The notes: generated from the sequence alone by a model not told the origin. Shown: positions 11,332 through 39,742, counted from the stretch's first letter. The stretch: DNA of 64,000 bases from Acidimicrobiales bacterium (GCA_036493595.1 DASXPN010000073.1:32029-96028); one strand, 5' to 3'. Numbers and translations: made by a program.

Positions 11332-11853
11332 TCAGGCGGTCTTGAACAGCTCGAGGACGCGCTCGTAGTCGTACGGCTCTTCGAGCATCGTGTCCGGATC
11401 CCACTGGCTGCGCGGTTGCGCGACGAAGTCGCCGCCGTACACGTGGATCGCACCCGTGTGGGTGCGACGCGGGTTCGTGACCGAATGGATCGCGTCGTCG
11501 CCGAGCATCAACACGTCGGACTCATGCAACTCTTTGCCACCGGACGCGTTGATGCTCGATCGGTCCCGCCGGAAGAACGCGTTGTCCTCTTGACCCGCGT
11601 AGATCCCGATTGCCGCCCACATGCGATGGTCGTGCGCTTGCAGCGTCATGCCCGGCGGCCACACCACGTTCAAGACCGTCAAGGTGTCCGAGCGGTGGAG
11701 CAGGTTGAGCCCGCCGCGGCCATGCTCCAACTCGTCCGCCACCGCGGTCGGTCGCGCCACGGCGCGCTCGAGGACCTCACGAATGGCGCGCCTCGGTTCG
11801 TTCTCCGTGACAGCGTGCTCGCATTCTTTGATGAACTCGTCCAAGTCGAACAT
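11332..11853 (-). CDS. Cupin-fold metal-dependent protein (cysteine-dioxygenase-like / COG5553-type)
   Basis: Track ORF of 173 aa. Pattern TLQAHDHRMWAAIGIYAGQE...HSV.N, typical of a double-stranded beta-helix metal site. Confidence 0.6.
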   Translation of the reverse strand: MFDLDEFIKECEHAVTENEPRRAIREVLERAVARPTAVADELEHGRGGLNLLHRSDTLTVLNVVWPPGMTLQAHDHRMWAAIGIYAGQEDNAFFRRDRSSINASGGKELHESDVLMLGDDAIHSVTNPRRTHTGAIHVYGGDFVAQPRSQWDPDTMLEEPYDYERVLELFKTA

Positions 11854-25232: not shown

Positions 25233-27211
<1,979 letters not shown>

Positions 27212-27215
<4 letters not shown>

Positions 27216-27820
27216 GTGGCACAGACGGCAGCAAGGCCGAAGCTTTCTCGTCCGCCGTCGACAAGGCGCGTATCGAGAAGGCAGTGCGGGAGATCCTCAT
27301 CGCCATCGGTGAGGACCCCGATCGCGACGGTCTCGTCGATACACCCGTGCGAGTGGCGCGCATGTACGAGGAGATCTTCGCCGGGCTGCACGACGACCCG
27401 TCGGTGTACCTGAAGACGACCTTCGAGGCCGATCACGACGAGATGGTGATGCTGCGCGACATCCCGATGTACTCCGCGTGCGAGCACCACCTTCTGCCGT
27501 GGATCGGCCAGGCGCACGTCGCGTACATCCCCAACGACGACGGCCGCGTCACCGGTCTGTCGAAGTTGGCCCGACTGGTCGATGCGTATGCGAAGCGGCC
27601 ACAGGTCCAGGAGCGGCTCACGTCGCAGATTGCCGACGAGCTCGATCGCAGCCTCGACCCGAAGGGCGTGATGGTCGTGATCGAAGCGGAGCACCTGTGC
27701 ATGACGATGCGCGGCATCCGCAAGCCGGGTGCCACCACGGTCACGTCCGCGGTGCGCGGCCTGTTCCGCCGCAACGTCGCCACCCGCGAGGAAGCGATGC
27801 GGTTCCTCCACACCCGCTGA
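27212..27820 (+). CDS. folE: GTP cyclohydrolase I
   Basis: In frame with track ORF 27158..27820. GTG 27212 overlaps the ftsH stop (GTGA). Motifs [10 protein letters not shown] and SACEHHLLP. Confidence 0.93.
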
Positions 27821-27835: not shown

Positions 27836-28651
27836 ATGAGCGGTCCGATGGGAACGATGCCGCTGTCGCAGGTCATGGGGGTCGTGAACGTGACCCCCGA
27901 TTCGTTCTCCGACGGTGGCCTCTACCTCGATCACGACGCCGCCGTCGCGCACGGGATGGCCCTGATCGCCGAGGGGGCCGACGTGGTCGACGTCGGCGGC
28001 GAGTCGACTCGCCCGGGCGCCGAGCCGGTGCCGCCCGCGGAGGAATTGCGACGCGTGCTCCCGGTGGTGCAGGAGCTCTCGCCTCATGTCCGGGTCAGCA
28101 TCGACACCCGGAAGGCAGAGGTTGCCGAAGCGGCGATCGCGGCGGGCGCCACGCTTGTCAACGACGTGTCCGCGTCACTGTACGAAGTGGTCGCAGCGGC
28201 CGGCCCGTCGGTCGGTTGGGTGGCGATGCACATGCTCGGCGACCCTCGCACGATGCAGCAGAACCCGATCTACGACGACGTCGTCGCTGACGTCCGGGAC
28301 TTTCTCGTCGATCGCGCTGCTGCGGCCGTCGCCGCCGGCGTGCAGGAGGTTTGGATCGACCCTGGCATCGGGTTCGGGAAGACCGTTGCGCACAATTGGT
28401 CGCTGTTGCGCCACCTGGACGCACTGGTCGCGACCGGCTATCCGGTGCTGCTCGCCACCAGCCGGAAGCGTTTCCTCGGCGTGGTCACCGCCGAGTCCGA
28501 CGGGCTACCCGATCTCACTCTGACGGCGGCCGACGACCGGGTCGAGGCCTCCGTCGCCACTGCTGTCTGGGCGATGGTGCAAGGTGCGCGCATGGTCCGG
28601 GTGCATGATGTGCGGGCCACGGTGCAGGCCGCCATGGTCGTCGCCGGGTGA
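27836..28651 (+). CDS. folP: Dihydropteroate synthase
   Basis: Track ORF of 271 aa. Motifs GVVNVTPDSFSDGG and DVGGESTRPG. Confidence 0.95.
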   Translation: MSGPMGTMPLSQVMGVVNVTPDSFSDGGLYLDHDAAVAHGMALIAEGADVVDVGGESTRPGAEPVPPAEELRRVLPVVQELSPHVRVSIDTRKAEVAEAAIAAGATLVNDVSASLYEVVAAAGPSVGWVAMHMLGDPRTMQQNPIYDDVVADVRDFLVDRAAAAVAAGVQEVWIDPGIGFGKTVAHNWSLLRHLDALVATGYPVLLATSRKRFLGVVTAESDGLPDLTLTAADDRVEASVATAVWAMVQGARMVRVHDVRATVQAAMVVAG

Positions 28652-28670
28652 TCGAGACAGGAGTGCCAGC

Positions 28671-29186
28671 GTGCCGGGCATGAAAGGCAAGTGGGCTCAA
28701 GGCATCGAACCCCGAAATTTCGCGTGGGTCGTGAAGGACAAATTGGCGGTGTGCGAGCGCCCCGGTGGGTACGGCGCCAACCATCGGCGCGTCCGCAGGC
28801 AGGAAGAGATCATCTGGATCCGTGAGCAGGGATTCACGTGCGTGATCTCGCTGATCCCGTCGCCGCACAACCTGCACAACTACGACGAGCTCGGAGTGAC
28901 GTGGCGGCACCGCCCGTTCGCCGTGCACGACGACGAGCAGAAGTTCGTCGCCGGCTTCTTTCCAGAGCTGCGCGGGATGCTGTCCGAGGGCCAGAAGGTG
29001 CTGGTGCACCAGGACGAGCTGGGTGACCGCGTGTCGGGTCTGATCGCCGGGTTCTTGCTGTGGTCCGGCATGGTCGACCACGGGCCGGACGCCATCTCGA
29101 TCACCGAGCAACTCGTGCATCGCCAACTCGGTCCCCTCGGCCGTCAGCTCGTGACGATTGCCCAGGAACTGCCGAAACCCGCGTGA
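28671..29186 (+). CDS. Dual-specificity/PTP-fold phosphatase-like protein lacking the catalytic Cys (HQDELGDR in place of HCxxGxxR)
   Basis: In frame with track ORF 28584..29186. GTG 28671 sits 7 nt after AGGAG; stop overlaps the folB start (GTGA). Fold pattern ...GFTCVISL...YDELGVTWRHRPFAVHDDE...KVLVHQDELGDRVSGLIAGFLLW. Confidence 0.6.
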   Translation: MPGMKGKWAQGIEPRNFAWVVKDKLAVCERPGGYGANHRRVRRQEEIIWIREQGFTCVISLIPSPHNLHNYDELGVTWRHRPFAVHDDEQKFVAGFFPELRGMLSEGQKVLVHQDELGDRVSGLIAGFLLWSGMVDHGPDAISITEQLVHRQLGPLGRQLVTIAQELPKPA

Positions 29187-29542
29187 CGGATCACATCGAA
29201 CTGCGCGGGCTCGTCGCCTCCGGCTACTGCGGGGCCCTGCCAGAGGAGCAGCAACGGCCACAACCACTCGAGGTGGATCTCGATCTGCACCTCGATCTGG
29301 ACGATTCCGCCCGCAGTGACGCGCTCGACGACACGGTCGACTACGGCGCGCTGTGCGCGGCGGTCGAGCAGGTGATCACGAGCGAGCGGTTCACCCTGCT
29401 CGAGCGGCTCGCCGCCCGGATCGCCGAGGTGTCGCTCCGGGATGGACGCGCCTTCGCGGTCTCGGTCACCGTGCGCAAGCTCCGTCCGCCGGTCCCACAG
29501 CAACTCGCCACCGCGGGCGTTCATCTCGAGCGGTCGCGATGA
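29183..29542 (+). CDS. folB: Dihydroneopterin aldolase
   Basis: In frame with track ORF 29060..29542; GTG 29183. IELRGL...GALPEEQQRPQPLEVDLDL...DDTVDYG... is a typical FolB pattern. Confidence 0.88.
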   Translation: MTDHIELRGLVASGYCGALPEEQQRPQPLEVDLDLHLDLDDSARSDALDDTVDYGALCAAVEQVITSERFTLLERLAARIAEVSLRDGRAFAVSVTVRKLRPPVPQQLATAGVHLERSR

Positions 29543-30021
29543 CCGCGGGCATGGAGGCACCGGAAGCGCCGCGGCGGGTTCTGCTGTCGCTCGGGTCGAA
29601 TCTCGGCGATCGGCGGCGCACGTTGCGCGAGGCAGTCGACTCGCTGCCGGGTGTCACGGCAGTGTCGGGTCTGTACGAGACAGATCCTGTCGGTGGGCCG
29701 CCCGGTCAGGCCCCGTATCTCAACCTCGTCGTCGCCATCGAGTCAGCGGCGTCGGCGCGGCAGTTGCTCGGCATGTGCCATCGCATCGAGTCCGCGGCGG
29801 GTCGGGTGCGGGTCGAGCGATGGGGACCGCGCACGCTCGACCTCGACATCTTGTGGATCGACGGCGAAACGGTCAACGACCCCGACCTGTCGATCCCCCA
29901 TCCGCGGATGTTCGAGCGCCGGTTCGTGCTCGTCCCGCTGAATGACGTCGCGCCGGACCTGCTTCCTGCCGGTTGGCAGGATCATGTCGACGGTTGGGTC
30001 ACGCCCGCGGAGCCTCTCTGA
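29539..30021 (+). CDS. folK: 2-amino-4-hydroxy-6-hydroxymethyldihydropteridine pyrophosphokinase
   Basis: In frame with track ORF 29353..30021. ATG 29539 overlaps the folB stop (ATGA). Motifs LSLGSNLGDR, WGPRTLDLDIL and PHPRMFERRFVLVPL. Confidence 0.92.
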   Translation: MTAGMEAPEAPRRVLLSLGSNLGDRRRTLREAVDSLPGVTAVSGLYETDPVGGPPGQAPYLNLVVAIESAASARQLLGMCHRIESAAGRVRVERWGPRTLDLDILWIDGETVNDPDLSIPHPRMFERRFVLVPLNDVAPDLLPAGWQDHVDGWVTPAEPL

Positions 30022-33603: not shown

Positions 33604-34437
33604 ATGACAGAAGTCAGCGGACATCCCGCGAACTGGTATCCCGATCCTTTCGGTCGGTTCGAGATGCGGTACTACGACGGCACCCAGTGGACCGAGCACG
33701 TGTCCAACGGCGGTGGTGCGCAACAGCTCGATCCGCCGGTGGGGTCGAGCGTCGTCCCCACCGTCAATCGCACGATCGCGAAGGTCCAAGACGATGTTGT
33801 GCGCGCCGGGCTCACGGGCGGCCAGATGGCCGGCGGCGGCACCGTGTACTCCGAGCCGATCCTGGTGGTGAGCCAGAAGGCGAAGTGGATCGAGGTCAAC
33901 AACGAGTACGCGATCTTCGATCAGCACGGCGCGCAGGTCGGTGCGGTGCGCGAGGTCGGCCAGAGCACGGCCAAGAAGATGGTCCGCGTGCTCACGTCGT
34001 ACGACCAGTTCCTCACGCACAAGTTGCAGATCGTCGACATGCAAGGAACCGTGCTGCTGGCGCTGACCCGTCCGGCGAAGTTCATGAAGTCCAAGATCAT
34101 CGTGTCGGACGGCACCGGACGCGAGATCGGCCAGATCGTGCAGCAGAACGTCGTGGGCAAGATCCACTTCGGCCTCGAGTCGAGCGGGCATGCGTACGGC
34201 TCGATCAACGCCGAGAACTGGCGGGCCTGGAACTTCAACATCCAAGACCACACCGGCGCCGAGGTCGCCCGCATCACCAAGACCTGGGAAGGCTTCGCGA
34301 AGACGATGTTCACGACGGCGGACAACTACGTCGTGCAACTCCACGGCGAGCTCCAGGAGCCCCTGTGCTCACTCGTGATCGCGTCCGCTCTGTCGATCGA
34401 CACCGCTCTCAAGCAGGACGACCGCGGCCTCAACTAG
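33604..34437 (+). CDS. DUF2510 N-terminal motif + scramblase/LURP-one-related (tubby-like) domain protein
   Basis: Track ORF of 277 aa. ANWYPDPFGRFEMRYYDGTQWTEHV (DUF2510 pattern). The remainder, ...ILVVSQKAKWIEVNNEYAIFDQHG...KLQIVDMQGTVLLAL...KIIVSDG..., resembles bacterial scramblase-family proteins. Confidence 0.6.
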   Translation: MTEVSGHPANWYPDPFGRFEMRYYDGTQWTEHVSNGGGAQQLDPPVGSSVVPTVNRTIAKVQDDVVRAGLTGGQMAGGGTVYSEPILVVSQKAKWIEVNNEYAIFDQHGAQVGAVREVGQSTAKKMVRVLTSYDQFLTHKLQIVDMQGTVLLALTRPAKFMKSKIIVSDGTGREIGQIVQQNVVGKIHFGLESSGHAYGSINAENWRAWNFNIQDHTGAEVARITKTWEGFAKTMFTTADNYVVQLHGELQEPLCSLVIASALSIDTALKQDDRGLN

Positions 34438-34450
34438 CGAAATCGGCGGG

Positions 34451-34861
34451 TCAGCGTTCGTCGTGTTGGGCGGCTTCGGCTTCCTCGACCGGGTCGAGGG
34501 GACGGGCGGCGAAGTCGACCGCCGCCCACGTCGACTTCGCGAACGGGTACAGCAGCAGCGGGCCGAGGATCGCGATGGCGGCACCGACGAGCAGCCACGG
34601 CACCAGTGACACGTCGCCGTCGTTGGCGGCGGCCCACAGCAGGAAGGCGAAGATCTCGATCACCAGCAGCACACCCGTGACGGCGTAGTTCACGAGGTAC
34701 ACGCCGGTGAAGAACCCCTCTTCGCGCTCGAACTTGTAGCCGCACCGCGGGCAGCGTTCCTTGAGCTGGAAGTAGGTGCGGAAGATCTTCCTGGCTCCGC
34801 ATCGACCGCACCGGCGCCGCACGCCCCGCAGCACAATCGTGCGCACCCGTGCGCGCTCCAC
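34451..34861 (-). CDS. DUF983-family membrane protein with N-terminal zinc ribbon
   Basis: Track ORF of 136 aa. CGRCGARKIF...CPRCGYKF followed by two TM segments. Confidence 0.7.
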   Translation of the reverse strand: MERARVRTIVLRGVRRRCGRCGARKIFRTYFQLKERCPRCGYKFEREEGFFTGVYLVNYAVTGVLLVIEIFAFLLWAAANDGDVSLVPWLLVGAAIAILGPLLLYPFAKSTWAAVDFAARPLDPVEEAEAAQHDER

Positions 34862-38988: not shown

Positions 38989-39102
38989 GCGAGCGCAGCG
39001 AGCTCAGGTGGTTCCAGTCGAGCGAGCGCCAGCTCGCCGGTTGGTTTGGGGTCTGGGGGCGTAGCCCCCAGGGAAGCGAAGCAGCGTGAGCGAGATCAGC
39101 GA
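38977..39102. repeat. Direct repeat with 101-bp period: gaagcagcgtgagcgag(cg/at)cagcga at 38977-39001 and 39078-39102
   Basis: 23 of 25 nt identical. Each copy carries a TGA stop overlapped by a GTG start. The interval contains a perfect hairpin ctgggggc-gta-gcccccag (about 39050-39068). Confidence 0.85.
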
Positions 39103-39742
39103 CGTTGCGGCGGGGTCGTTCGTGCGGCACCGGCTCGACGGTACGTACGCGATCGACGAGTGGGGACTCGACGCCGAGCTCGTCGATGCGGTTTCACCGT
39201 TGCTGGGATTGCGTTGGCAGGTCGACACCATCGGTGCCGACGTCTTGCCGCGCCACGGCGCGGTGCTGCTTGTCGCCAACTGCCGGCTGGGTTGGTCGGA
39301 GCCCTTCGTGATGAGCCGGGGCATCCGGCAGGCGACAGGACGCTTCGTGCGCGTCGCCGGCGTCCCCGATGTCGCGCCTGTCGGTCCGTTGTTGCGTCGG
39401 TTCGGGGGCGTGCTCGCCCGCCCGGACGAGATCACCGGGTTGCTGCGAGCCGGCGGGATGGTCGGGGTCACGCTCGGGCAGTCCGTCCGTCGGCGTCATC
39501 ACGCGGGCGCGGTGCGGCCGGATCTGCTCGCACCCGCACTGGTCGTCGGTGCTGATGTCGTGCCCGTTGCGTTGATCGGTCGTGAGCTCGGGCGCCGCTG
39601 GCAGGTTGTTGTCGGGCCGGCCATCGAGCGCCCGACGAGCCGCGGCCCACTGGCGGTCGCTGACCTCGCCGAGCGGGCTCGCAACGGTGTGCAGTCATTG
39701 CTCGACGAGGCGTTTCCCCCGAGCTTGCTGAGGATGTCATGA
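39086..39742 (+). CDS. PlsC-like (lysophospholipid) acyltransferase-family protein with a degenerate catalytic box
   Basis: Track ORF of 218 aa. LLVANCRLGWSEPF sits where the family has NHxSxxD. Downstream, VPVAL... resembles block III/IV. Confidence 0.5.
   Translation: MSEISDVAAGSFVRHRLDGTYAIDEWGLDAELVDAVSPLLGLRWQVDTIGADVLPRHGAVLLVANCRLGWSEPFVMSRGIRQATGRFVRVAGVPDVAPVGPLLRRFGGVLARPDEITGLLRAGGMVGVTLGQSVRRRHHAGAVRPDLLAPALVVGADVVPVALIGRELGRRWQVVVGPAIERPTSRGPLAVADLAERARNGVQSLLDEAFPPSLLRMS

What the first reader, a model, noticed from the sequence alone, without database searches (positions are those of the whole stretch)
28671..29186. Cys-less PTP/DSP-fold ORF translationally embedded between folP and folB
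A 171-aa ORF sits inside folE-folP-X-folB-folK. It has AGGAG 7 nt upstream of GTG 28671, and its stop overlaps the folB start (GTGA).

Its sequence follows the dual-specificity phosphatase pattern:
- ...CVISL...
- An acid-loop-like RPFAVHDDE.
- Then KVLVHQDELGDRVSGLIAGFLLW, where the family has VHCxxGxxR(S/T)G.

The nucleophile codon is CAG (Gln), two substitutions away from Cys, while the P-loop Arg is retained.

Folate synthesis requires removal of the triphosphate of dihydroneopterin triphosphate between FolE and FolB. A Nudix pyrophosphatase does the first part in E. coli and Lactococcus. The final monophosphate phosphatase has no dedicated gene assigned in most bacteria. The position makes this ORF a candidate for that missing step through a non-canonical mechanism. 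Alternatively it could be a phosphopterin-binding pseudo-phosphatase that channels the intermediate.
Basis: partly seen in the sequence, partly recalled or inferred. Interest (0 to 1): 0.55.

Follow-up and report, generated by a model that had tools for sequence, protein, structure and literature searches.

The report
Catalytically dead phosphatase-fold gene in folate operon
A real, very strongly conserved small protein sits between two folate-synthesis genes in a whole class of Actinobacteria; it has the shape of a dual-specificity phosphatase but has lost the catalytic residues, so it is probably a binding protein, not the "missing" folate-pathway phosphatase.

Summary
Window 28671-29186 (+) encodes a 171-aa protein between folP and folB. 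AGGAG lies 7 nt upstream and the stop overlaps the folB start (GTGA).

It is a real gene:
- More than 3,700 homologues, in at least 554 species, all named Acidimicrobiia/Acidimicrobiales where named.
- dN/dS of 0.02-0.11, lower than the flanking folP and folB in every comparison.

The fold is dual-specificity phosphatase (DSP). AlphaFold2 gives pLDDT 94. The best Foldseek match is DUSP23/VHZ, and a family profile hits PDB 25xa at E 2e-12. Pfam and NCBIfam have no model for it.

The phosphatase reading is not supported across the family:
- The Cys slot holds 12 different residues and is never Cys.
- The P-loop Arg is kept in only 20 of 41 representatives.
- The acid loop is the least conserved segment.
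- Constraint sits instead on an inserted loop and helix, ERPGG…HR-VRR-EE…W.

folB follows the gene in 75 of 80 species loci and in 8 of 11 divergent relatives. The gene also occurs with no fol genes nearby in three separate lineages, and once inside a phage head module.

Best reading: a new bacterial pseudophosphatase that works by binding. It is probably an accessory to the pterin branch. Its ligand or partner is unknown.

The parts
27158..27820 (+). folE (GTP cyclohydrolase I). It is the upstream member of the operon. The true start is probably internal to this ORF.
   Evidence: Pfam PF01227, E 3.6e-78.
27836..28651 (+). folP (dihydropteroate synthase), immediately upstream of X.
   Evidence: Pfam PF00809, E 1.7e-77. 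It lies upstream of X in 71 of 80 species loci.
28659..28663 (+). AGGAG Shine-Dalgarno-like site, 7 nt before GTG 28671.
   Evidence: Read directly from the sequence.
28671..29186 (+). X: a 171-aa DSP-fold protein without the catalytic Cys (pseudophosphatase). An alternative start is ATG 28680 (168 aa).
   Evidence: - ORF.
- 3,714 homologues.
- AF2 pLDDT 94.3, pTM 0.88.
- Foldseek best match DUSP23, PDB 2IMG, TM 0.73/0.83.
- Family profile hits PDB 25xa at E 1.9e-12.
- dN/dS 0.024-0.11.
28755..28817 (+). The most constrained block of the family, residues 29-49 (β2-α1 loop and helix α1): E29-R30-P31-G32-G33 ... H38-R39-x-x-R42-R43-x-E45-E46 ... W49. It contains a 6-residue insertion relative to the nearest canonical DSP.
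   Evidence: - Each named residue is at least 90% conserved in the 41 representatives at 50% identity.
- Mean column conservation for residues 29-39 is 0.94 (243 sequences) and 0.76 (representatives).
- The insertion shows as a gap in the 25xa alignments.
28911..28937 (+). Acid-loop-like RPFAVHDDE (residues 81-89). This is the least conserved segment of the family.
   Evidence: Mean column conservation is 0.58 (243 sequences) and 0.28 (representatives). In the representatives, D87 is kept in 5 of 41 and D88 in 14 of 41.
29007..29039 (+). Degenerate P-loop H113-Q-D-E-L-G-D-R120-V-S-G123. It aligns with HCxxGxxR(S/T)G of canonical DSPs.
   Evidence: - It aligns to HCRAGYGRTG of 25xa.
- H113 and G123 are nearly invariant.
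- Slot 114 is never Cys.
- R120 is kept in 208 of 243 sequences overall but in only 20 of 41 representatives.
- Positions 115, 116 and 119 are mostly acidic.
29183..29186 (+). GTGA overlap of the X stop with the folB start.
   Evidence: Read directly from the sequence. The distance from the X stop to the folB start is mostly -7 to +60 nt in 74 loci.
29183..29542 (+). folB (dihydroneopterin aldolase).
   Evidence: Pfam PF02152, E 2.7e-30. It lies downstream of X in 75 of 80 loci.
29533..30021 (+). folK (HPPK).
   Evidence: Pfam PF01288, E 1.1e-37.

Best explanation
X is a real, strongly constrained protein that descends from a small bacterial dual-specificity phosphatase of the DUSP23 type. Where its homologues carry a taxon name, they are Acidimicrobiia. 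It has lost the Cys-X5-Arg chemistry, so it is a pseudophosphatase.

**Shown**
- The DSP fold.
- No Cys at the nucleophile slot anywhere in the family sample.
- A variable P-loop Arg and a variable acid loop.
- Very low dN/dS.
- Co-directional, tightly spaced or overlapping placement between folP and folB in most species.

**Inferred**
- X acts by binding rather than by hydrolysis.
- The binding surface is the old active-site face, rebuilt around an inserted, invariant basic/acidic loop and helix (ERPGG...HR-VRR-EE).
- β2 to β5 of this fold are parallel strands. The β2-α1 loop, the β3-α2 loop (N67, Y71) and the P-loop His therefore lie on the same edge of the sheet.
- X is made together with FolP, FolB and FolK. 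Its most likely role is as a non-catalytic accessory of the pterin branch. It could hold a phosphorylated pterin or guanine-type ligand, or dock onto one of the enzymes.
- X is not the missing dihydroneopterin-phosphate phosphatase.
- Adjacency to fol genes is not obligatory for it.
For: **Fold**
- AF2 model: pLDDT 94.3, pTM 0.88.
- Foldseek top hits are DUSP23/VHZ, baculovirus RNA 5'-phosphatase, KAP, Cdc14, Tk-PTP and SsoPTP, 255 hits at E<=1e-3.
- Family profile against PDB: 25xa 'Dual specificity protein phosphatase family protein' at E 1.9e-12, aligning HQDELGDR to HCRAGYGR.

**Dead catalytic site**
- In 243 full-length sequences the Cys slot reads Q167 G36 A9 R9 M6 H6 S4 E2, with no Cys.
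- In 41 representatives that slot holds 12 residue types.
- The Arg slot is R in 20 of 41 representatives.
- The D-loop has the lowest conservation of any segment.

**Constraint**
- dN/dS of X is 0.024-0.11.
- The neighbours are less constrained: folP 0.13-0.21, folB 0.13-0.24, folK 0.08-0.19.
- Mean identity to the window protein over 80 species is 69.8%, against 58-66% for FolB, FolK and FolP.
- The conservation hot spot is residues 29-49.

**Operon placement**
- folB lies downstream in 75 of 80 loci and folP upstream in 71 of 80.
- Gaps between X and folB are short or overlapping.
- 8 of 11 relatives at 35-43% identity still precede folB.
- No terminator-like signal above chance was found inside the operon.
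Against: - No ligand or partner has been identified.
- No coordinates were available, so the location of the invariant residues rests on fold topology, not on measured distances.
- X occurs without neighbouring fol genes in three separate lineages:
  - The clade L040, L049, L058, L068 and L070, arranged Zincin_2-tilS-X-fpg.
  - L085, arranged X-panC.
  - L090, L091 and L093, arranged ftsH-X-DUF2520-panC, with folE, folP, folB and folK all absent from the locus.
- One homologue lies between a phage portal gene and a major-head gene.
- The surrounding backbone (tilS-hpt-ftsH-fol-pan-nad-coaX-lysS-clpC) mixes unrelated housekeeping genes and is syntenic across the sampled loci. Adjacency could therefore be inherited position rather than functional coupling.
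- The invariant Glu, Arg and His residues could in principle form a new catalytic site.
Confidence: 0.5

Rival explanations
1. X is a pseudophosphatase whose job has nothing to do with folate, for example a regulator or adaptor that binds a protein, nucleotide or polyanion. It lies between folP and folB only because it was inserted there in an ancestor, inside a chromosomal backbone that rarely rearranges.
For: - X persists with no fol genes in the locus in three separate lineages.
- In L090 and L093, folE-folP and folB-folK are missing on either side of X. X stays tightly linked to ftsH, and its stop overlaps the start of the DUF2520 gene.
- The five species of the no-fol clade keep X at 83-94% identity to each other, and their N-terminal block is nearly identical to the window protein's.
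- A phage carries a copy between its portal and major-head genes, with no fol genes within 10 kb upstream or 3 kb downstream.
- The backbone holds unrelated housekeeping genes in fixed order.
- Other genes have been inserted between X and folB: a toxin-antitoxin pair in L095 and GtrA in L092.
Against: - X-folB adjacency with very short or overlapping spacing survives down to 35-43% identity in 8 of 11 divergent relatives.
- Within the backbone, X always sits at the fol position.
- Loci were found by searching for X, so lineages that lost X together with the fol genes cannot be seen.
- In the no-fol loci the fol genes may simply lie elsewhere in the genome. The L049-type loci also lack essential genes such as ftsH and lysS, which must have moved.
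Confidence: 0.3
2. X is an active hydrolase with a non-cysteine, possibly metal-dependent, mechanism. It removes phosphate or pyrophosphate from dihydroneopterin triphosphate or monophosphate.
For: - X sits in the operon between the enzymes that act before and after the dephosphorylation step.
- The literature held here still describes the last dephosphorylation as 'non-specific'. It reports the pyrophosphatase gene as missing in most genomes in 2007 (PMC1971073).
- No Nudix box occurs in the 64-kb window.
- The family has invariant Glu, Arg and His residues (E29, R30, H38, R39, R42, R43, E45, E46, H113). The P-loop is mostly acidic (D/E at 115, 116 and 119) and could bind a metal.
Against: - Every residue of the canonical mechanism is variable, including in members still located between folP and folB.
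- I know of no precedent for a hydrolytic PTP-fold enzyme without the Cys (from memory).
- X is restricted to one bacterial class, whereas the step is universal.
- X also occurs without fol genes nearby and in a phage.
Confidence: 0.1
3. The ORF is a decaying relic of a phosphatase gene, or a chance frame in GC-rich DNA.
For: The catalytic motif is lost, and Pfam and NCBIfam give no hit.
Against: - 3,714 homologues.
- At least 554 species.
- dN/dS of 0.02-0.11, below folP and folB in every comparison.
- GC3 of 0.84.
- A confident fold prediction.
Confidence: 0.01

Closest known systems
DUSP23/VHZ-type small dual-specificity phosphatases (PDB 2IMG, 4ERC), and the bacterial 'dual specificity protein phosphatase family protein' PDB 25xa
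   Same: - The same α/β fold and size: Foldseek TM 0.73/0.83 to 2IMG.
- Profile E 1.9e-12 to 25xa.
- Shared N-terminal NF-W-V β1 motif, the PGG after β2, the His that opens the P-loop, the Gly after it, and the same P-loop length.
   Different: - The nucleophile Cys is replaced by Gln here and by 12 residue types across the family.
- The P-loop Arg and the acid loop are not conserved.
- The P-loop is acidic.
- A 6-residue insertion in the β2-α1 loop carries invariant His and Arg.
- X does not reach any Pfam DSP model.
Eukaryotic pseudophosphatases of the DSP fold (STYX, MK-STYX). The comparison is from memory.
   Same: A DSP fold without the catalytic Cys, kept under selection. These proteins are presumed to act by binding rather than by catalysis.
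   Different: - STYX keeps the P-loop Arg and binds phosphoproteins. In the X family the Arg itself is dispensable.
- X is bacterial and embedded in an operon.
- There is no detectable specific sequence relationship.
NudB/FolQ Nudix dihydroneopterin-triphosphate pyrophosphatases, and the HD-type FolQ2 candidates (PMC1971073)
   Same: Like FolQ in Lactococcus folKEPQC, X is a small gene inside a fol cluster, at the place where a dephosphorylating enzyme would be expected.
   Different: - The fold is unrelated.
- X has no Nudix box.
- X has no conserved catalytic constellation of any known hydrolase.

Membership tests
Cys-based PTP/DSP superfamily (catalytic members) | PTP/DSP α/β fold | tested here: met
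   AF2 pLDDT 94.3. Foldseek best matches are DUSP23, KAP, Cdc14, Tk-PTP and SsoPTP, all at probability 1.00.
Cys-based PTP/DSP superfamily (catalytic members) | Nucleophilic Cys in the HCX5R signature | tested here: not met
   The slot is Gln114 in the window protein. No Cys occupies it in 243 full-length homologues. The alignment to HCRAGYGR of 25xa fixes the position.
Cys-based PTP/DSP superfamily (catalytic members) | Invariant P-loop Arg | tested here: not met
   R120 is present in the window protein. It is kept in 208 of 243 sequences but in only 20 of 41 representatives at 50% identity, with 12 other residues seen.
Cys-based PTP/DSP superfamily (catalytic members) | General-acid Asp on the loop before α3 | tested here: not met
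   D87 and D88 are present in the window protein. In the representatives they are kept in 5 of 41 and 14 of 41. This is the least conserved segment.
Cys-based PTP/DSP superfamily (catalytic members) | Match to a curated family model (Pfam DSPc or related) | tested here: not met
   The window protein has no Pfam or NCBIfam hit, even at E<=1 and E<=10 respectively. Only 3 of 21 family members touch DSPc, Tc-R-P or PTP-SAK, at E 0.006-0.024.
Cys-based PTP/DSP superfamily (catalytic members) | Phosphatase activity | not testable with these tools
   This needs purified protein.
Pseudophosphatase (DSP fold, non-catalytic) | Phosphatase fold, with catalytic residues lost across the family and the gene kept under purifying selection | tested here: met
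   Fold. Loss of catalytic residues. dN/dS 0.024-0.11.
Pseudophosphatase (DSP fold, non-catalytic) | Demonstrated binding function | not testable with these tools
Nudix DHNTP pyrophosphatase (NudB/FolQ) | Nudix box GX5EX7REUXEEXGU | tested here: not met
   A regular-expression search of all six frames of the window found none. The fold of X is DSP, not Nudix.
Folate-pathway gene (by genomic association) | Conserved adjacency to fol genes beyond close relatives | tested here: inconclusive
   - folB follows X in 75 of 80 species loci and in 8 of 11 divergent relatives.
- Three lineages and one phage have X with no fol genes nearby.
- The loci were ascertained through X.
- The surrounding backbone is broadly syntenic.

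The most novel reading that the evidence does not exclude
X uses its invariant Glu/Arg/His cluster and acidic P-loop as a new, cysteine-independent (possibly metal-assisted) site on a phosphatase scaffold. With it, X hydrolyses or hands over dihydroneopterin tri- or monophosphate. That would supply the long-unassigned dephosphorylation step of folate synthesis in Acidimicrobiia.
Probability: 0.1. Interest if true: 0.8.

Novelty: new variant of a known kind. Interest (0 to 1): 0.4.

Why it matters
- Bacterial pseudophosphatases are, to my knowledge, barely described.
- This one defines a large unannotated family with no Pfam or NCBIfam model.
- It evolves more slowly than the essential folP and folB that flank it.
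- It sits in the operon exactly where a dephosphorylating activity has never been assigned a dedicated gene.
- If it binds a pterin-branch intermediate or enzyme, it would be a new non-catalytic component of folate synthesis.
- If its role is unrelated, it shows that operon position can mislead when a gene lies inside a frozen housekeeping backbone.
- For annotation, it should not be labelled a phosphatase.

Tried and rejected
1. **Complex prediction.** I built a paired X+linker+FolB alignment of 33 species to test for a complex.
2. **Metagenome scans.** Scans with divergent alignments failed because no stretch was conserved enough. The single-protein scan with P0259 returned only one locus, L093, which has the same no-fol arrangement.
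3. **Searching with a divergent member.** Searching the 5.8-billion-protein index with P0217 returned only P0217 itself.
4. **Viral searches.** Three IMG/VR scans and one tblastn against GenBank phages looked for more phage-borne copies and found none.
5. **Apparent fusion proteins.** The long proteins in the representative search (FolP-X, X-FolB-FolK, TilS-X) look like frameshifted read-throughs of GC-rich DNA, or carry low-complexity tails. I did not count them as fusions.
6. **PHROGs and PADLOC.** Neither hits X or its phage homologue.
7. **Promoter and terminator scan.** It found nothing above chance.
9. **Residue distances.** No model coordinates are returned, so distances between residues could not be measured.

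Full report
**1. The observation**

The ORF runs from GTG 28671 to TGA 29186 and encodes 171 aa.
- AGGAG lies at 28659-28663, 7 nt upstream of the GTG.
- An in-frame ATG at 28680 (MKGKW...) is an alternative start. Many homologue gene calls use the equivalent start, giving 168 aa.
- The stop codon overlaps the folB GTG (29183-29186, GTGA).
- The quoted motifs are all present.
- Codon 114 is CAG. It differs from Cys (TGY) at all three positions, not two.

Pfam confirms the flanking genes as folE, folP, folB and folK. The wider window is a housekeeping backbone:
- Zincin_2, response regulator, tilS, hpt, ftsH
- folE, folP, X, folB, folK
- DUF2520, panC, panD, nadB
- a scramblase-like gene, DUF983 (minus strand), nadC, coaX, lysS
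- a polyprenyl synthase (minus strand), clpC, LppM, radA, disA

From memory, the same order without X is found in Mycobacterium tuberculosis (roughly Rv3626c to Rv3586).

**2. X is a real gene**

- X has GC3 of 0.84, like its neighbours.
- It has 3,714 homologues in the 5.8-billion-protein collection. Those that carry a name are called 'hypothetical protein', from Acidimicrobiales, Acidimicrobiaceae, Microthrixaceae and Iamiaceae genomes assembled from metagenomes.
- Relatives occur in at least 554 GTDB species.
- An all-against-library HMMER search found 481 clusters at 50% identity.
- Against the five closest species, dN/dS is 0.024-0.11 for X. The values for its neighbours are 0.10-0.12 for folE, 0.13-0.21 for folP, 0.13-0.24 for folB and 0.08-0.19 for folK.
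- Mean identity to the window protein over 80 species is 69.8% for X. It is 58.4% for FolB, 62.5% for FolK and 65.5% for FolP.

**3. The fold**

- Pfam and NCBIfam give no hit for X.
- AlphaFold2 with a 21-sequence alignment gives pLDDT 94.3 and pTM 0.88, with β-α-β topology.
- Foldseek against the PDB returns 255 hits at E<=1e-3. The top hits are DUSP23/VHZ (2IMG, TM 0.73/0.83), baculovirus RNA 5'-phosphatase, KAP, Cdc14, Tk-PTP, SsoPTP and Siw14.
- A family profile hits PDB 25xa, 'Dual specificity protein phosphatase family protein', at E 1.9e-12. Weaker hits are ShufPTP, Tk-PTP and VHR.
- The 25xa alignment places X H113-Q-D-E-L-G-D-R120 on HCRAGYGR.
- It also shows a 6-residue insertion (NHRRVR) in the X loop after β2.

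X is therefore a homologue of small DSPs.

**4. The catalytic machinery is gone across the family**

I aligned 243 full-length homologues, including 41 representatives of 50%-identity clusters.

| Position | 243 sequences | 41 representatives |
|---|---|---|
| Cys slot (114) | Q167 G36 A9 R9 M6 H6 S4 E2, never Cys | 12 residue types |
| P-loop Arg (120) | R in 208 | R in 20; otherwise T, G, V, P, Q, L, D, E, A, S, N or I |
| Acid loop (81-89) | mean conservation 0.58 | 0.28, the least conserved segment |

Members that still sit between folP and folB have lost the Arg: P0204 has V, P0234 has T and P0242 has V. The Arg is therefore not needed even in the fol context.

The residues that are at least 90% conserved in the representatives are G11, P14, W19, A26, E29, R30, P31, G32, G33, H38, R39, R42, R43, E45, E46, W49, Y71, H113, G123, L129, A141, E146 and G154.
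- The hot spot is residues 29-49, the β2-α1 loop with its insertion plus helix α1.
- Mean column conservation is 0.94 (243 sequences) and 0.76 (representatives) for residues 29-39. It is 0.91 and 0.67 for helix α1.
- In this fold β2 to β5 are parallel strands joined by crossover helices. The β2-α1 loop, the β3-α2 loop (N67, Y71) and the P-loop therefore lie on the same edge, which is the old active-site face. This is a topological inference; no coordinates were available.
- The P-loop itself is mostly acidic at 115, 116 and 119. That is unfavourable for binding a bare phosphate.

**5. Genomic association**

*Eighty species loci*
- folB follows X in 75 and folP precedes it in 71.
- The gap between the X stop and folB is mostly -7 to +60 nt.

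*Eleven divergent relatives (35-43% identity)*

| Protein | Locus | Arrangement |
|---|---|---|
| P0217 | L081 | hpt-X-folB-folK/panC |
| P0204 | L084 | hpt-folE-folP-X-folB-folK |
| P0234 | L086 | folP-X-folBK |
| P0242 | L088 | folP-X-folB |
| P0215 | L092 | X-(GtrA, minus strand)-folB |
| P0163 | L094 | X-folB |
| P0185 | L095 | folP-X-[PhdYeFM/PIN]-folB-folK |
| P0188 | L096 | hpt-folE-folP-X-folB |
| P0228 | L085 | Zincin_2-tilS-(unknown, minus strand)-X-panC; no fol genes |
| P0259 | L090, L091, L093 | tilS-hpt-ftsH-X-DUF2520-panC-coaX-lysS; folE, folP, folB and folK absent on both sides of X |
| P0244 | L082, L097 | phage: X lies between a portal gene (phrog_859, E 1e-72) and a major-head gene (phrog_777, E 7e-45); no fol genes within 10 kb upstream or 3 kb downstream |

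Eight of the eleven still precede folB.

*A third lineage without fol genes*
- Five of the 80 species (L040, L049, L058, L068, L070) have Zincin_2-tilS-X-fpg.
- Their X proteins are 83-94% identical to each other.
- Both the Cys slot and the Arg slot are Gly.
- The N-terminal block is almost identical to the window protein's.

*Caveats*
- All loci were found by searching for X, so joint loss of X and the fol genes is invisible.
- I could not check whether the fol genes lie elsewhere in these genomes.
- The L049-type loci also lack the essential ftsH and lysS, so rearrangement rather than loss explains at least that case.

**6. Interpretation**

- The canonical phosphatase mechanism is excluded for the family.
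- A new catalytic site built from the invariant Glu, Arg and His residues cannot be excluded. It has no precedent known to me, and I give it about 0.1.
- The best-supported reading is a pseudophosphatase that acts by binding at a rebuilt active-site face.
- Whether it serves the pterin branch (about 0.4-0.5) or has a fol-independent role (about 0.3) is not settled.
- Operon position, tight coupling to folB and persistence of that coupling to 35% identity favour a pterin-branch role.
- The no-fol loci, the phage copy and the generally frozen backbone favour a fol-independent role.

**7. Literature**

- The folate comparative-genomics paper PMC1971073 describes the last dephosphorylation as attributed to a non-specific phosphatase.
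- It also states that the pyrophosphatase gene was missing in most genomes at that time.
- Later reviews in the searched library still name no dedicated monophosphatase.
- I found no paper linking Acidimicrobiia, folate biosynthesis and auxotrophy.
- I ran no literature search aimed at this family itself. A search on pseudophosphatases and bacteria listed nothing in its top hits that described it.

**8. Novelty and score**

- X represents a large, unannotated, Cys-less branch of the DSP superfamily in bacteria. It is a new variant of a known kind.
- Interest is moderate at 0.4. The attractive 'missing enzyme' idea is weakened.
- What remains is an unusually constrained pseudoenzyme inside a vitamin operon with an unknown ligand or partner. 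That question can be tested directly.

Noticed in passing
L082 6001-6489 (the same contig as L097 10001-10489; Logan ERR10798457_4971, 19.9 kb, GC 0.70): A 162-aa homologue of X (P0244, 38% identity) lies in a phage head module. It keeps the E-x-PGG...HRRVRR-EE block. It sits between a portal protein (phrog_859, E 1e-72) and a major head protein (phrog_777, E 7e-45). It is followed by an overlapping 174-aa unknown ORF and a DUF3039 gene. No other phage-borne copy was found in IMG/VR or among GenBank phages.
   Followed up: partly
L090/L091 5001-5492 and L093 6001-6489: In this lineage (named Acidimicrobiia/Actinomycetes bacterium; GCA_021296455.1, MKWU01000051.1) the backbone reads tilS-hpt-ftsH-X-DUF2520-panC-coaX-lysS. 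folE, folP, folB, folK, panD and nadB are all absent from the locus, while X is kept. Whether these genes lie elsewhere in the genome could not be checked.
   Followed up: partly
L095 1008-1717: A PhdYeFM antitoxin/PIN toxin pair is inserted between X and folB inside the fol operon of one divergent relative.
   Followed up: no
L081 9015-10325; L086 5519-6373: Two gene fusions occur in related loci: folK-panC (436 aa, HPPK + pantoate ligase) and folB-folK (284 aa).
   Followed up: no
Proteins P0121, P0129, P0152 (basic tails) and P0128, P0183 (acidic tails): Several X homologues carry long disordered C-terminal tails. Some are Ala/Lys/Pro-rich and histone-H1-like (one member hits Pfam HC2 at E 1e-4). 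Others are acidic. The window protein has no tail.
   Followed up: no
window 33604-34437 (+): A 277-aa protein with DUF2510 and Scramblase domains (E 4e-20) sits between nadB and nadC. It is followed by a DUF983 gene on the opposite strand (34451-34861).
   Followed up: no
window 39086-39742 (+) and 11332-11853 (-): Two ORFs with coding-like GC3 (0.82 and 0.87) have no Pfam match at E<=1e-4.
   Followed up: no
Proteins P0122, P0161, P0166, P0201, P0252: The long 'fusion' proteins joining TilS, FolP, X, FolB and FolK in public protein sets look like frameshifted read-throughs of GC-rich contigs, with runs of Arg/Pro/Ala-rich out-of-frame sequence. They should not be used as fusion evidence.
   Followed up: partly
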